A stretch of DNA of 64,000 nt from Escherichia coli. Lineage in GTDB: Bacteria > Pseudomonadota > Gammaproteobacteria > Enterobacterales > Enterobacteriaceae. Both the position numbers and the translations under genes were made by a program. Every line of letters begins with the position of its first letter. Position 1 is the first letter of the stretch. Shown here piece after piece: positions 28,700-36,005 of the stretch. A model generated the notes under the pieces. That model was not told where the DNA came from. It did no database searches and saw only the letters and a program-made list of their open reading frames with translations. The stretch lies in NCBI RefSeq assembly GCF_003991155.1, contig NZ_CP031293.1. The stretch is one strand, 5' to 3'.

Positions 28700-28750
28700 G
28701 ACAGCCCCCTCGCCCCTCCGGGGTGAGGGGAACAAACCAGCGCCGGTGCA
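28700..28750. repeat. GC-rich palindromic intergenic repeat (boxC-like)
   Basis: ccccctcgcccctccggggtgaggggaa; a near-identical unit recurs at 35960..36005. Confidence 0.5.
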
Positions 28751-28759
28751 AACTATCTC

Positions 28760-29524
28760 CTAAACCCCAACCACTTTACGCAAAATATCGATATACACCG
28801 GCATCAACGGGTGGCGAATTAACACCACCAGCGCCACCACGCCGATGGCAGAAATCAACGGCGTCAGCCACAACAAACGACCGCGCGACAAATAATGACT
28901 CAAACGGTCAGTCGCTTTACCGCTGCGCCATAACCGCCAGCACAGCCAGCCCCCAACCCACAAAAATACCGCCGTCGCCAGCAGCAACCATTTAAACTCA
29001 CCACTCTGCATCCCGGCAGGAATATCGATCGCCGCACCCGCCAGAATCCCCGGCAGGAAGTAAAACGGTGGCCACAGCAGGCAGCCGATAATATTCGGCG
29101 TAATAAATTTTGCCACCGGGAGATCCAGCATTCCCGCCACCATTGGCACCAGCGGACGCGTCGGGCCAACAAAGCGACCGACCAGAATGGTGAACATGCT
29201 GTGTTGATGCAACGCATGTTCAGTTTTATCGAGTAATGCTTTGTTTTTCTTCAGAAATGACCAGCGATGCAATGGCTTTTTAAAACGCCAGCCCAGCCAG
29301 AAAGAGATCCAGTCGCCCAGCAGGCAACCGACGATCCCTGCCAGCCAGGCGTGCCAGAAACTTAACTCGCCACTGCCAATCAGCGCCCCCAGTCCCGCCA
29401 TTAGCACCGTACCGGGTAAAATCAAACCGACCAGCGCCAGCGACTCCAGAAAGGCCACCAACACCACCGCCATCAATGAATACACGGTGGATTGGGTAAT
29501 AAAGTGTTCCAGCAATGCTTGCAT
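28760..29524 (-). CDS. yabI: YabI, DedA-family inner membrane protein
   Basis: 254-aa ORF with DedA-type membrane topology. Confidence 0.9.
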   Translation of the reverse strand: MQALLEHFITQSTVYSLMAVVLVAFLESLALVGLILPGTVLMAGLGALIGSGELSFWHAWLAGIVGCLLGDWISFWLGWRFKKPLHRWSFLKKNKALLDKTEHALHQHSMFTILVGRFVGPTRPLVPMVAGMLDLPVAKFITPNIIGCLLWPPFYFLPGILAGAAIDIPAGMQSGEFKWLLLATAVFLWVGGWLCWRLWRSGKATDRLSHYLSRGRLLWLTPLISAIGVVALVVLIRHPLMPVYIDILRKVVGV

Positions 29525-29609
29525 AATGTGCCTGTCAAATGGACGAAGCAGGGATTCTGCAAACCCTATGCTACTCCGTCAAGCCGTCAATTGTCTGATT
29601 CGTTACCAA

Positions 29610-29660
29610 TTATGACAACTTGACGGCTACATCATTCACTTTTTCTTCACAATCGGCACA
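29610..29660 (-). pseudogene. Orphaned araC 3'-terminal fragment (last ~16 codons plus stop), separated from araC by the insertion
   Basis: Minus strand reads ...GCC GAT TGT GAA GAA AAA GTG AAT GAT GTA GCC GTC AAG TTG TCA TAA (..ADCEEKVNDVAVKLS*), the AraC C-terminal tail as I recall it. Confidence 0.75.
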
Positions 29661-29678
29661 AAAGACACCCTCTGCCTA

Positions 29679-30101
29679 TCATTCGATAGTCTCAAAATAT
29701 TCCACCTGCAGAGAATCACGGTGCTCAATGATGCAATAACGCTGGAAATTATTTGCATAATCACTTTTATCATGAAAAAACCATATACAATCGTTTTGTA
29801 GACTCGGTCCCATTCCTTTCAAAAAATCTATTAGCTTTGCTTTCTGAAGAAAAATATTATCTATATTTCGCCATGTAACAATCACTCTTGTTTGCATATC
29901 ATCAACATTATAGTAATAGCTATACTCGGCTACGTTTGATATATTTGGCAAATTTCGCAAACTCTCTGGCGTATAAAGGAAAAATGGGGAAAGTTCATGC
30001 TGTGTATAGTGATGTTCCTTTGACATCAATGAGATATAAGCATAGAAAAATATAAAGAATAAAACTAAAAATGATAATAAAATATAAATATATTTTGACA
30101 T
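29679..30101 (-). CDS. Hypothetical small membrane-anchored protein, 140 aa; candidate immunity/partner protein
   Basis: N-terminal TM helix YIYILLSFLVLFFIFFYAYISL then a soluble domain; 6 bp downstream of the 283-aa ORF; strongly AT-rich. Confidence 0.6.
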   Translation of the reverse strand: MSKYIYILLSFLVLFFIFFYAYISLMSKEHHYTQHELSPFFLYTPESLRNLPNISNVAEYSYYYNVDDMQTRVIVTWRNIDNIFLQKAKLIDFLKGMGPSLQNDCIWFFHDKSDYANNFQRYCIIEHRDSLQVEYFETIE

Positions 30102-32653: not shown

Positions 32654-34354
32654 ATGGCGATTGCAATTGGCCTCGATTTTGGCAGTGATTCTGTGCGAGC
32701 TTTGGCGGTGGACTGCGCCACCGGTGAAGAGATCGCTACCAGCGTAGAGTGGTATCCCCGTTGGCAGAAAGGGCAATTTTGTGATGCCCCAAATAACCAG
32801 TTCCGTCATCATCCGCGTGACTACATTGAGTCAATGGAAGCGGCGCTGAAAACCGTGCTTGCAGAGCTTAGCGCCGAGCAGCGCGCAGCTGTGGTCGGGA
32901 TTGGCGTTGACACAACCGGCTCGACGCCCGCACCGATTGACGCGGACGGTAACGTCCTGGCGCTGCGCCCGGAGTTTGCCGAAAACCCGAACGCGATGTT
33001 CGTATTGTGGAAAGACCACACCGCGGTTGAAGAAGCGGAAGAGATAACCCGCTTATGTCACACGCCGGGCAACGTTGACTACTCCCGCTATATTGGCGGT
33101 ATTTATTCCAGCGAATGGTTCTGGGCAAAAATCCTGCATGTGACTCGCCAGGATAGCGCCGTGGCGCAATCTGCCGCATCGTGGATTGAGCTGTGCGACT
33201 GGGTACCAGCTCTGCTTTCCGGTACCACCCGCCCGCAGGATATTCGTCGCGGACGTTGCAGCGCCGGGCATAAGTCGCTATGGCATGAAAGCTGGGGCGG
33301 CCTGCCGCCAGCCAGTTTCTTTGACGAACTGGACCCGATCCTCAATCGCCATTTGCCTTCCCCGCTGTTCACTGATACCTGGACTGCCGATATTCCGGTG
33401 GGCACGTTATGTCCGGAATGGGCACAGCGTCTCGGCCTGCCTGAAAGCGTGGTGATTTCCGGCGGCGCGTTTGACTGCCATATGGGCGCAGTTGGTGCAG
33501 GCGCACAGCCTAACGCACTGGTAAAAGTTATCGGTACTTCCACCTGCGACATTCTGATTGCCGACAAACAGAGCGTTGGCGAGCGGGCAGTGAAAGGTAT
33601 TTGCGGTCAGGTTGATGGCAGCGTGGTGCCTGGATTTATCGGTCTGGAAGCAGGCCAATCGGCGTTTGGCGATATCTACGCCTGGTTCGGTCGCGTACTC
33701 GGCTGGCCGCTGGAACAGCTTGCCGCCCAGCATCCGGAACTGAAAGAGCAAATCAACGCCAGCCAGAAACAACTGCTTCCGGCGCTGACCGAAGCATGGG
33801 CTAAAAACCCGTCTCTGGATCACCTGCCGGTGGTGCTCGACTGGTTTAACGGCCGCCGCACACCGAACGCTAACCAACGCCTGAAAGGGGTGATTACCGA
33901 TCTGAACCTCGCCACCGACGCACCGCTGCTGTTCGGCGGTTTAATTGCCGCCACCGCCTTTGGCGCACGCGCAATTATGGAGTGCTTCACCGATCAGGGG
34001 ATCGCCGTCAATAACGTGATGGCACTGGGCGGCATCGCGCGCAAAAACCAGGTCATTATGCAGGCCTGCTGCGACGTGCTGAATCGCCCGCTGCAAATTG
34101 TTGCCTCTGACCAGTGCTGTGCGCTCGGTGCGGCGATTTTCGCTGCCGTCGCCGCGAAAGTGCACGCAGATATCCCATCAGCCCAGCAAAAAATGGCCAG
34201 TGCGGTAGAGAAAACCCTGCAACCGCGCAGCGAACAAGCACAACGCTTTGAACAGCTTTATCGCCGCTATCAGCAATGGGCGATGAGCGCCGAACAACAC
34301 TATCTTCCAACTTCCGCCCCGGCACAGGCTGCCCAGGCCGTTCCGACTCTATAA
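32654..34354 (+). CDS. araB: AraB, ribulokinase
   Basis: 566-aa [23 protein letters not shown]. Confidence 0.95.
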
Positions 34355-34364
34355 GGACACGACA

Positions 34365-35867
34365 ATGACGATTTTTGATAATTATGAAGTGTGGTTTGTA
34401 ATTGGCAGCCAGCATCTGTATGGCCCGGAAACCCTGCGTCAGGTGACGCAACATGCGGAACACGTTGTTAATGCACTGAATACAGAAGCGAAGTTGCCCT
34501 GCAAACTGGTGCTGAAACCGCTGGGCACCACGCCGGATGAAATCACCGCTATTTGCCGCGACGCGAATTACGACGATCGTTGCGCTGGTCTGGTGGTGTG
34601 GCTGCACACCTTCTCCCCGGCCAAAATGTGGATCAACGGCCTGACCATGCTCAACAAACCGTTGCTGCAATTCCACACCCAGTTCAACGCGGCGCTGCCG
34701 TGGGACAGCATCGACATGGACTTTATGAACCTGAACCAGACCGCGCATGGCGGTCGCGAGTTCGGCTTCATCGGCGCGCGTATGCGTCAGCAACATGCCG
34801 TCGTTACCGGTCACTGGCAGGATAAACAAGCCCATGAGCGTATCGGCTCCTGGATGCGTCAGGCGGTCTCTAAACAGGATACCCGTCATCTGAAAGTCTG
34901 CCGTTTTGGCGATAACATGCGTGAAGTGGCGGTCACCGATGGCGATAAAGTTGCCGCACAGATCAAGTTCGGTTTCTCCGTCAATACCTGGGCGGTTGGC
35001 GATCTGGTGCAGGTAGTGAACTCCATCAGCGATGGCGATGTTAACGCGCTGGTCGATGAGTACGAAAGCTGCTACACCATGACGCCTGCGACACAAATCC
35101 ACGGCGAAAAACGACAGAACGTGCTGGAAGCGGCGCGTATTGAGCTGGGGATGAAGCGTTTCCTGGAACAAGGTGGCTTCCACGCGTTCACCACCACCTT
35201 TGAAGATTTGCACGGCCTGAAACAGCTTCCTGGTCTGGCCGTACAGCGTCTGATGCAGCAGGGTTACGGCTTTGCGGGCGAAGGCGACTGGAAAACTGCC
35301 GCCCTGCTTCGCATCATGAAGGTGATGTCAACCGGTCTGCAGGGCGGCACCTCCTTTATGGAGGACTACACCTATCACTTCGAGAAAGGCAATGACCTGG
35401 TGCTCGGCTCCCATATGCTGGAAGTCTGCCCGTCGATCGCCGCAGAAGAGAAACCGATCCTCGACGTTCAGCATCTCGGTATTGGCGGTAAAGACGATCC
35501 TGCCCGCCTGATCTTCAACACTCAAACCGGTCCAGCCATTGTCGCCAGCCTGATTGATCTCGGCGATCGTTACCGTCTGCTGGTTAACTGCATCGACACG
35601 GTGAAAACACCGCACTCCCTGCCGAAACTGCCGGTGGCGAATGCGCTGTGGAAAGCGCAACCGGATCTGCCAACTGCTTCCGAAGCGTGGATCCTCGCTG
35701 GTGGCGCGCACCATACCGTTTTCAGCCATGCGCTGAACCTCAACGATATGCGCCAGTTCGCCGAGATGCACGACATTGAAATCACGGTGATTGATAACGA
35801 CACCCGCCTGCCAGCGTTTAAAGACGCGCTGCGCTGGAACGAAGTGTATTACGGGTTTCGTCGCTAA
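34365..35867 (+). CDS. araA: AraA, L-arabinose isomerase
   Basis: 500-aa [23 protein letters not shown]. Confidence 0.95.
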
Positions 35868-35950
35868 GTAGCCGCATCAGGTGTGTAACGCCTGATGCGA
35901 CGCTGACGCGTCTTATCAGGCCTACACGCTGTGATTTTGTAGGCCGGATA
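35868..35950. repeat. REP / BIME element
   Basis: gccgcatcaggtgtgtaacgcctgatgcgacgctgacgcgtcttatcaggcctacacg...gtaggccggataagc; typical REP palindromes. Confidence 0.75.
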
Positions 35951-35959
35951 AGCAAAGCG

Positions 35960-36005
35960 CATCCGGCATTGTTTTCCCCCTCGCCCCTCTGGGGAGAGGG
36001 CCGGG
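35960..36005. repeat. GC-rich palindromic repeat (boxC-like), second copy
   Basis: ccccctcgcccctctggggagagggccggggtgaggggaa; related to 28700..28750. Confidence 0.5.

What the first reader, a model, noticed from the sequence alone, without database searches (positions are those of the whole stretch)
28700..36005. Two copies of a GC-rich palindromic repeat (boxC-like) at operon ends
ccccctcgcccctc(c/t)gggg..tgaggggaa occurs after thiQ (28700..28750) and between the araA-proximal REP and araD (35960..36005). These are short interspersed repeats distinct from REP and may act as transcript-stabilising or terminator-like structures.
Basis: seen in the sequence. Interest (0 to 1): 0.2.

Follow-up and report, generated by a model that had tools for sequence, protein, structure and literature searches.

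The report
Two BoxC repeats, one decayed
The two GC-rich palindromes are copies of BoxC, a known short repeat scattered through E. coli genomes: one copy is intact, the other has lost 12 bases, and neither shows evidence of a role in gene expression.

Summary
The window is E. coli strain 2016C-3878. It holds exactly two copies of the motif, at 28705-28732 (14 nt after the thiQ stop) and 35976-36015 (between the araA-proximal REP and araD). Shuffled sequence gives none.

Both belong to the known BoxC family, also called PIT or TMECO (Bergler 1992; Hoyne & Maher 2000/2002; Holder 2015). Site 2 matches the published three-block consensus exactly and is type B (loop CCG). Site 1 has only two blocks. 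Strain AH50 carries the full type-A element at the same spot with identical flanks, so site 1 is a 12-nt deletion between the two direct purine blocks, leaving a plain 11-bp hairpin.

The two copies have different subfamily flanks, so they are not duplicates of each other. Both sites vary between strains. About 29% of 5,426 complete E. coli genomes have BoxC at araA-araD and about 5% at thiQ-yabI. K-12 has REP/BIME units at both places instead.

"At operon ends" holds only for site 1, because site 2 lies inside araBAD. Neither site has a canonical terminator, and published tests found no terminator activity.

Side observation: the same core occurs across bacterial phyla, often as half of a larger multi-hairpin palindrome.

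Verdict: already known, low interest.

The parts
28691..28749 (+). Decayed type-A BoxC element with its family-specific flanks (AAAGCGCACGGACAGC ... AACAAACCAGCGCCGGTGC). It fills nearly the whole thiQ-yabI spacer.
   Evidence: Its flanks match those of K-12 type-A copies (#6, #23, #11, #7). Strain AH50 has the full three-block type-A element here with identical flanks. K-12 and O157 have REP at this position instead.
28706..28730 (+). 11-bp hairpin CCCCTCGCCCC / GGGGTGAGGGG with loop TCC: the two blocks that survive the 12-nt deletion. It cannot form the three-block triplex.
   Evidence: Inverted repeat 91% complementary, with one G.T pair. RNA fold of the 51-nt stretch around it gives -26.1 kcal/mol, z = -2.9. 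It matches the two-block pattern but not the three-block pattern.
35971..36025 (+). Intact type-B BoxC segment of 55 nt (GTTTTCC...core...GAAACGACCTCTC). It occupies the place where other strains have one or two further BIME units, and ends just before the araD Shine-Dalgarno AGGAG (36026-36030).
   Evidence: Alignments with K-12, O157, A30 and K-15KW01. The TTTTCC / GAAA flanks match K-12 type-B copies #3, #10 and #18.
35978..36013 (+). Three-block core CCCTCGCCC-CTCTG-GGGAGAGGG-CCG-GGGTGAGGG-G, i.e. TMECO type 'B mm'.
   Evidence: Exact match to the published consensus, 0 expected by chance. It differs by 1 nt from K-12 TMECO #3 and from #18.
35868..35970 (+). Single REP/BIME unit next to the BoxC. 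This is context, not part of BoxC.
   Evidence: REP-type inverted repeats. Sub-threshold naRNA4 (REP325-derived) Rfam match at 35849-35922, 37.4 bits against a gathering score of 59.5. It aligns to the first BIME unit of K-12.

Best explanation
Both sites are members of the known enterobacterial BoxC repeat family, also called PIT elements or TMECO. The family is a GC-rich unit of one pyrimidine block (CCCTCNCCC) followed by two direct purine blocks (GGGNGAGGG) 12 nt apart.

Site 2 (araA-araD) is an intact type-B unit. Site 1 (thiQ-yabI) is a type-A unit that lost exactly one 12-nt period by deletion between the two direct purine blocks, leaving a simple 11-bp hairpin.

Shown here: family membership, the deletion, the difference in subfamily flanks, and the strain-to-strain polymorphism, with REP/BIME occupying the same spacers in other strains.

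Inferred: the element has no dedicated role in expressing thiQ, yabI or araD. It behaves as a structure-prone, essentially selfish or neutral repeat. When single-stranded during replication or repair, its hairpin or triplex folding promotes slippage and local rearrangement, which is why these spacers are hypervariable. In the mRNAs it will form a stable hairpin, but any effect on decay or termination is incidental and unproven.
For: Identity. Site 2 matches CCCTCNCCC-N3-6-GGGNGAGGG-N3-GGGNGAGGG exactly, with 0 matches in 100 shuffles. This is the consensus given in PMC4666352. Its core is 1 nt from MG1655 TMECO #3 and #18.

Subfamilies. Flank alignment of 12 MG1655 loci shows type-A and type-B specific flanks. 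Site 1 carries type-A flanks and site 2 type-B flanks.

Deletion. AH50 has ...CCTCCGGGGAGAGGGTTAGGGTGAGGGGAAC... with the same flanks as the window's ...CCTCCGGGGTGAGGGGAAC.... The same kind of 12-nt loss recurs at fimH-gntP in strain 1916D18, where K-12 has the full copy. It also recurs in the type-B partner next to K-12 #22.

Recurrence. There are 11 places in the source chromosome and a median of 19 per genome. Of 98,039 places, 50 are on plasmids.

Polymorphism. The junction query covers at least 80% in 1,567 of 5,426 genomes at araA-araD and in 253-256 at thiQ-yabI. About 70 of the latter carry the truncated form. K-12 and O157 carry REP/BIME in both spacers.

Literature. The elements are intergenic, show no orientation bias and no promoter or terminator activity. 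They form a triplex in vitro as single strands but not in duplex DNA or by in vivo DMS footprinting. Their loci are hypervariable, with many 'mutated/degenerated' copies.
Against: The mechanistic half (structure-induced slippage, no expression role) rests on inference and on published correlations. Nothing here measures replication stalling or RNA fate.

The hairpins are very stable in RNA (-26 to -34 kcal/mol) and both sit in transcribed spacers, so an effect on mRNA 3' processing cannot be excluded.

The minus strand of site 1 shows a hairpin plus UUUU.

The core is conserved across phyla and shows compensatory changes in associated hairpins. That suggests some selected structure-specific interaction that a purely neutral view does not explain.
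Confidence: 0.85

Rival explanations
1. One reading: the elements act at the RNA level as terminator-like or transcript-stabilising hairpins at the 3' ends of transcription units, much as REP elements do.
For: RNA hairpins are stable at both sites (-26.1 and -30.9 kcal/mol). On the yabI sense strand, site 1 extends through the outer GCAC/GTGC stem to a -33 kcal/mol hairpin followed directly by UUUUAA. About 7 of 12 type-A copies have a T-run in that orientation. In K-12, both spacers hold REP/BIME, elements credited with mRNA stabilisation. A paper states that BIME and boxC repeats are transcribed in E. coli (PMC3738161).
Against: The terminator scan finds nothing at either copy. Site 2 lies inside araBAD, 20 nt before araD, where termination would be harmful. 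Hoyne & Maher 2002 found no terminator or promoter activity, as cited in PMC4666352. Among the K-12 type-A copies examined between co-directional genes, 3 are in the 'hairpin then T-run' orientation and 3 in the opposite one. Holder et al. likewise report no orientation or operon-position bias.
Confidence: 0.2
2. BoxC is a MITE-like non-autonomous mobile element, and the two copies are recent insertions mobilised in trans by an unidentified enzyme.
For: The elements are present in some strains and absent in others at both loci. They are multicopy and dispersed. Conserved subfamily-specific flanks have inverted termini (GYGC...GCAC; TTTTCC...GGAAAA). The same core occurs in many phyla embedded in lineage-specific longer repeats, and in over 120 predicted viral contig stretches. 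K-12 copy #3 lies in the cryptic prophage CP4-6.
Against: There are no target-site duplications. At both loci the BoxC allele replaces the REP allele rather than being a clean insertion into it. Copies sit at a limited set of conserved loci, 63 across 56 strains. They are rare on E. coli plasmids: 50 of 98,039 places. No associated transposase is known.
Confidence: 0.15
3. The purine-rich strand forms a triplex or G-quadruplex in vivo that regulates neighbouring genes. An example would be a structure in the araBAD mRNA or DNA just upstream of araD.
For: Site 2 has four G-runs (GGGG AGA GGG CC GGGG TGA GGGG) on the araBAD sense strand. [quoted passage not shown]
Against: No triplex signal was seen in duplex DNA, and in vivo DMS footprinting showed no protection. 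Purine-motif triplexes do not form in RNA. The complementary C-rich block lies immediately upstream and a hairpin is predicted to dominate. Site 1 has only two G-runs and cannot form either structure. No functional class or distance bias of flanking genes was found.
Confidence: 0.07

Closest known systems
BoxC / PIT element / TMECO (Bergler et al. 1992; Bachellier et al. 1999; Hoyne et al. 2000; Hoyne & Maher 2002; Holder et al. 2015, PMC4666352)
   Same: Site 2 matches the consensus exactly and is type B (loop CCG) with one mismatched triplet. It is intergenic, multicopy and at a hypervariable locus. Site 1 has the type-A flanks, and strain AH50 carries the full type-A copy at the same site. 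Its core is identical to K-12 TMECO #23.
   Different: Site 1 itself no longer meets the three-block definition, having lost 12 nt and become a hairpin only. Neither locus carries a BoxC in K-12 MG1655, whose 23 listed copies are elsewhere.
REP / BIME (PU) elements
   Same: Short, GC-rich, palindromic, interspersed and extragenic. They occupy these same two spacers in K-12 and O157, and one BIME unit abuts site 2.
   Different: There is no sequence relationship: BoxC lacks the GCCKGATGCGRCG core. BoxC has a pyrimidine/purine block structure. It has about 20 copies per genome against several hundred for REP. It has no known RAYT-type transposase partner. REP lies within about 70 nt of only 3 of 12 K-12 BoxC loci.
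Rho-independent (intrinsic) terminators
   Same: A GC-rich stem-loop in a 3' untranslated spacer. The minus strand of site 1 has a stem followed by UUUU.
   Different: There is no U-tract after the stem at site 1 (+) or site 2. Published tests for terminator activity were negative. Site 2 is internal to an operon.

Membership tests
BoxC / PIT / TMECO | Three-block consensus CCCTCNCCC-N3-6-GGGNGAGGG-N3-GGGNGAGGG | tested here: met
   Site 2 (35978-36012) matches exactly, with 0 matches in 100 shuffles. Site 1 fails this test taken on its own, since only two blocks remain. Strain AH50 has all three blocks at the same site with identical flanks.
BoxC / PIT / TMECO | Second loop of type A (TTA) or type B (CCG) | tested here: met
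   Site 2 has CCG, so it is type B. The full allele of site 1 in AH50 has TTA, so it is type A. Types are as defined.
BoxC / PIT / TMECO | Dispersed and multicopy in the same genome | tested here: met
   11 places in NZ_CP029747.1 and a median of 19 per genome across 5,425 genomes. The count comes from BLAST places, not from a full pattern scan of the source genome.
BoxC / PIT / TMECO | Strictly intergenic location | tested here: met
   Site 1 lies between the thiQ and yabI stop codons. Site 2 lies between the araA stop and the araD start.
BoxC / PIT / TMECO | Subfamily-specific conserved flanks (about 56-bp BoxC unit) | tested here: met
   Site 1 has CGCACGGACAG / AACAAACCAGC, like K-12 #6, #23, #11 and #7. 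Site 2 has GTTTTCC / GAAAC, like #3, #10 and #18.
BoxC / PIT / TMECO | Single strand folds into a purine-motif intrastrand triplex in vitro | not testable with these tools
   Published CD and NMR data exist for 'type B mm' oligonucleotides. K-12 #3, a type 'B mm' copy 1 nt from site 2, was the site used for in vivo DMS footprinting. Site 1 cannot form a triplex, having two blocks only.
REP / BIME | REP consensus core (GCCKGATGCGRCG... / ...CTTATCMGGCCTAC) | tested here: not met
   Neither BoxC copy contains it. The REP unit is the separate stretch 35868-35970.
Intrinsic terminator | GC-rich stem followed within 0-2 nt by a U-rich tract (at least 5 of 8) | tested here: not met
   The scan reports no site at either copy. 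The minus strand of site 1 has only UUUUAA after an extended stem.
Any curated RNA family (Rfam 15) | Covariance-model match over the element | tested here: not met
   No match on either copy at E <= 1. No match at gathering threshold on 16 loci from other bacteria and K-12.

The most novel reading that the evidence does not exclude
The single three-block BoxC unit may be only half, or a decayed arm, of a much more widespread palindromic mosaic element. In Geobacter, Pseudolabrys, an alphaproteobacterial MAG, Polaromonas and the E. coli A+B pairs, the third block (GGGTGAGGG) is matched 18-50 nt (mode 27-30 nt) downstream by CCCTCACCC. In Geobacter and Pseudolabrys the 105-113-nt unit carries two further hairpins whose stems differ between copies yet stay complementary. 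That would point to a conserved structure-specific partner, such as a mobilising enzyme or an ssDNA/RNA-binding factor, rather than to the triplex as such. It would recast the E. coli copies, including these two, as relics of that system.
Probability: 0.2. Interest if true: 0.5.

Novelty: already known. Interest (0 to 1): 0.13.

Why it matters
For this window it matters little. The finding identifies two copies of a repeat family described since 1992 and surveyed genome-wide in 2000 and 2015.

Its modest value is as a clean natural example of what the literature describes statistically. The same spacer carries a full BoxC, a 12-nt slipped derivative or REP units in different strains. A common araA-araD polymorphism (about 29% of genomes) swaps BIME units for a BoxC just upstream of araD. 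These isogenic-like natural variants would make convenient material for testing whether BoxC affects mRNA fate or replication fidelity.

The broader open question is why an almost identical 33-36-nt core persists across phyla. This finding does not answer it.

Tried and rejected
- Rfam at E <= 1 over 27500-37500 found nothing on either copy, only a sub-threshold naRNA4 hit on the neighbouring REP. Rfam at gathering threshold on 16 loci from other bacteria and K-12 found only tRNAs.
- The promoter/terminator scan found no site at either copy.
- I tested whether BoxC targets REP sites, since both window sites hold REP in K-12. Only 3 of 12 K-12 BoxC loci have a REP within about 70 nt, so I dropped the idea as weak.
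- I looked for target-site duplications or a clean empty site at both loci. The alleles are replacements of the spacer, not simple insertions.
- I tested whether type-A copies are oriented as terminators. Copies between co-directional genes split 3 to 3, and convergent pairs are uninformative.
- The supplements of PMC4666352 contain no araD, araA, thiQ or yabI entries, so I could not tell whether these loci are among the paper's 63.
- The Macvanin et al. 2012 paper on HU-bound RNAs could not be retrieved. I recall from memory that it links a boxC-like RNA to HU, but this is unverified and not used.
- The regex parse of the composite elements worked for only 14 of 25 copies, so the hairpin covariation rests on direct reading of the sequences and on RNAalifold. 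MAFFT misregistered the first block between the two genera.
They show breadth but give no counts.
- The two hypothetical genes between yabI and araC have no Pfam or PADLOC match.
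Full report
**Where the window comes from**

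The 64-kb window is identical to the chromosome of E. coli strain 2016C-3878 (NZ_CP029747.1), in the reverse orientation to K-12. The gene order is:
- thiB-thiP-thiQ (+)
- yabI (-)
- two hypothetical genes and an IS630 remnant
- araC (-)
- araB-araA-araD (+)
- polB (+)

**Checking the observation**

Site 1 reads CCCCCTCGCCCCTCCGGGGTGAGGGGAA at 28705-28732. It starts 14 nt after the thiQ stop codon (28688-28690) and ends 28 nt before the yabI stop (28760, minus strand).

Site 2 reads CCCCCTCGCCCCTCTGGGGAGAGGGCCGGGGTGAGGGGAA at 35976-36015. It lies between a REP/BIME unit (35868-35970) and the araD start codon at 36036.

- The two flanking 13-mers each occur exactly twice in the window, at these sites.
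- The pattern CCCTCNCCC-N3-6-GGGNGAGGG matches twice and the three-block version once, against no match in 100 shuffles for either.
- Searches allowing three mismatches find no additional copy.
- Site 2 equals site 1 plus 12 nt.

**What the elements are**

The literature gives a precise identity. BoxC was named by Bergler et al. 1992 next to envM/fabI and surveyed by Bachellier et al. 1999 as a 56-bp repeat with 32 copies. Hoyne et al. rediscovered the same element in 2000 as the "potential intrastrand triplex" (PIT) element. Holder et al. 2015 re-studied it as TMECO (PMC4666352).

The published consensus is CCCTCNCCC-N3-6-GGGNGAGGG-N3-GGGNGAGGG. Type A has TTA in the second loop and type B has CCG. 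MG1655 has 23 copies.

Site 2 fits this consensus exactly. It is type B with one mismatched triplet ("B mm"), and differs by one loop base from MG1655 copies #3 and #18.

Site 1 has only the pyrimidine block and one purine block. Taken alone, it fails the three-block definition.

**How site 1 arose**

Strain AH50 carries identical ThiQ and YabI proteins and identical spacer flanks. Its spacer reads ...CCCCCTCGCCCCTCCGGGGAGAGGGTTAGGGTGAGGGGAACAAACC... This is a full type-A unit whose core is identical to MG1655 #23.

The window sequence is that element minus exactly 12 nt, which is one period of the two direct purine blocks. What remains is an 11-bp hairpin with one G.T pair and a 3-nt loop.

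The same kind of loss has happened independently elsewhere:
- At fimH-gntP, strain 1916D18 has a two-block copy that keeps the A variant of the purine block, while K-12 has the full #23.
- In K-12, a two-block type-B partner lies next to #22.

This is the "degenerated/mutated TMECO" class that Holder et al. describe statistically.

**The two window copies are not duplicates of each other**

I extracted 12 MG1655 BoxC loci with their flanks. Type-A units share a left flank (A-run)-GYGCNC-(N)-GACAGTC and a right flank GAACAG-CC-GCAC. Type-B units share (G)CTTTTCY on the left and GAAAAG on the right.

Site 1 has type-A flanks and site 2 has type-B flanks. They belong to two subfamilies.

**Population picture**

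| Locus | Query | Genomes (of 5,426) covering at least 80% of the query |
|---|---|---|
| araA-araD (site 2) | 121-nt junction | 1,567 (about 29%) |
| thiQ-yabI (site 1) | 130-nt junction | 253 |
| thiQ-yabI (site 1) | 59-nt spacer | 256 |

- At thiQ-yabI, about 70 of the 256 genomes are at least 99% identical to the truncated form. By subtraction, most of the rest should carry the full form, which scores about 83% identity because of the 12-nt gap.
- K-12 and O157 have REP units in the thiQ-yabI spacer.
- The araA-araD spacer holds one BIME unit plus BoxC in the window strain, two units in O157 and strain A30, and three units in K-12 and K-15KW01.
- In the BoxC allele, a 55-nt segment (35971-36025) sits exactly between ...CCGGCATT and the araD Shine-Dalgarno AGGAG.
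- There are no target-site duplications. The alleles are replacements, not clean insertions.
- Genome-wide, the 55-nt query finds 11 places in the source chromosome and a median of 19 per genome. Only 50 of 98,039 places are on plasmids.

**Function**

Evidence bearing on an RNA-level role:
- No curated RNA family covers either copy.
- The terminator scan finds no site at either copy.
- Site 2 is internal to araBAD, so "operon end" applies only to site 1.
- The RNA hairpins are stable: -26.1 kcal/mol (z = -2.9) for site 1 on the plus strand, and -30.9 kcal/mol for site 2 including the TTTTCC/GGAAA extension.
- On the yabI sense strand, the outer GCAC/GTGC stem of the type-A unit extends the hairpin to -33 kcal/mol, followed by UUUUAA. 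About 7 of 12 type-A copies have a T-run in that orientation.

This last feature looks terminator-like, but orientation statistics do not support it. Among the K-12 type-A copies I examined between co-directional genes, three face that way (pstA-pstB, hrpB-mrcB, lldD-trmL) and three face the other way (adk-hemH, ycjD-fabI, gcvP-ygfF). Convergent pairs are uninformative.

The published record agrees. It reports no orientation or operon bias and no promoter or terminator activity. Triplex forms in vitro for single strands but not in duplex DNA or by in vivo DMS footprinting.

My best reading is that these are structure-prone, essentially neutral repeats. Their main demonstrable behaviour is local instability. 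Here that shows as slippage between the 12-nt-spaced purine blocks and as turnover of whole spacers. The identity and the deletion are shown by the sequences. The mechanism of instability and the absence of an expression role are inferred.

**Beyond E. coli (side observation)**

- Polaromonas
- Contendobacter
- Xanthomonas
- Stutzerimonas
- Hyphomicrobiales
- Pseudolabrys
- Geobacter
- Desulfobacterales
- Nitrospirae
- Chloroflexales
- Leptolyngbya
- a Bacteroidaceae MAG

Flanks are lineage-specific. The core also occurs in more than 120 stretches of predicted viral contigs. Holder et al. had already reported the motif in over 260 genomes.

What I did not find stated in the papers I read is that the third block is very often matched downstream by its complement CCCTCACCC, at a spacing of 18-50 nt with a mode of 27-30 nt:

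| Lineage | Copies with the downstream complement |
|---|---|
| Pseudolabrys | 9 of 9 |
| Geobacter | 20 of 23 |
| Alphaproteobacterial MAG | 7 of 11 |
| Polaromonas | 11 of 39 |
| E. coli A+B pairs | 6 of 16 |

In Geobacter and Pseudolabrys the 105-113-nt unit adds two more hairpins:
- A short GC hairpin whose stem differs between copies yet stays complementary. Examples are GGCGCAC/GTGCGCC, GACGTGC/GCACGTC, GGACCGC/GCGGTCC, GGATTGC/GCAATCC and GACATGC/GCATGTC in Pseudolabrys, and GGCC/GGCC versus GCCC/GGGC in Geobacter.
- A terminal hairpin with a compensated change: CCTTCTCCC/GGGAGAAGG versus CCCTCTCCC/GGGAGAGGG.

RNAalifold on 25 copies gives 29 pairs, 6 of them with double-sided changes. 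It also shows an alternative nested, cruciform-like pairing.

The single E. coli units, including the two in this window, may therefore be halves or relics of a larger palindromic mosaic element. This is suggestive only. The copies within a genome are related, the alignment was not structure-aware, and nothing shows whether the structure matters in DNA or in RNA.

**Verdict**

The functional interpretation is not supported. The feature is already known and of low interest.

Noticed in passing
L100-L108 (Pseudolabrys), L124-L140 (Geobacter), L112-L120, L039/L046 (Polaromonas), L012/L015/L017 (K-12): The three-block BoxC core is often followed 18-50 nt (mode 27-30 nt) downstream by CCCTCACCC, the complement of its third block. 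In Geobacter and Pseudolabrys this forms a 105-113-nt four-hairpin unit with compensatory changes in two of the hairpins. No Rfam family matches it.
   Followed up: partly
window 29679-30959 (minus strand), with an IS630 remnant at about 31084-31223: Two adjacent hypothetical genes (140 and 283 aa) and an IS630 transposase fragment lie between yabI and araC. K-12 has only an 85-bp spacer there. The genes have no Pfam or PADLOC match.
   Followed up: partly
window 31436-31465: A near-perfect GC palindrome (GAAGAAAGCAAGGGGGG/CCCCCCCTTGCTTTCTT) sits just after the araC stop codon. The scan flags it as terminator-like on both strands.
   Followed up: no
window 35849-35922: The araA-proximal REP/BIME unit gives a sub-threshold match to Rfam naRNA4, the REP325-derived HU-associated RNA (37.4 bits against a gathering score of 59.5). 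The number of BIME units in this spacer varies from 1 to 3 among strains.
   Followed up: partly
L002 5200-5769, approximately window 24499-25068 (minus strand): A T3SS effector gene annotated espY2 sits between sgrR and the thiB TPP riboswitch. I do not recall it in K-12 MG1655; this was not checked. It suggests an EPEC/EHEC-like accessory insertion.
   Followed up: no
L007 (K-12 281901-282336): MG1655 BoxC copy #3 lies inside the cryptic prophage CP4-6. This is the copy used for in vivo footprinting in the literature. The core pattern also occurs in over 120 IMG/VR contig stretches, so the family is not strictly excluded from phage-derived DNA.
   Followed up: no
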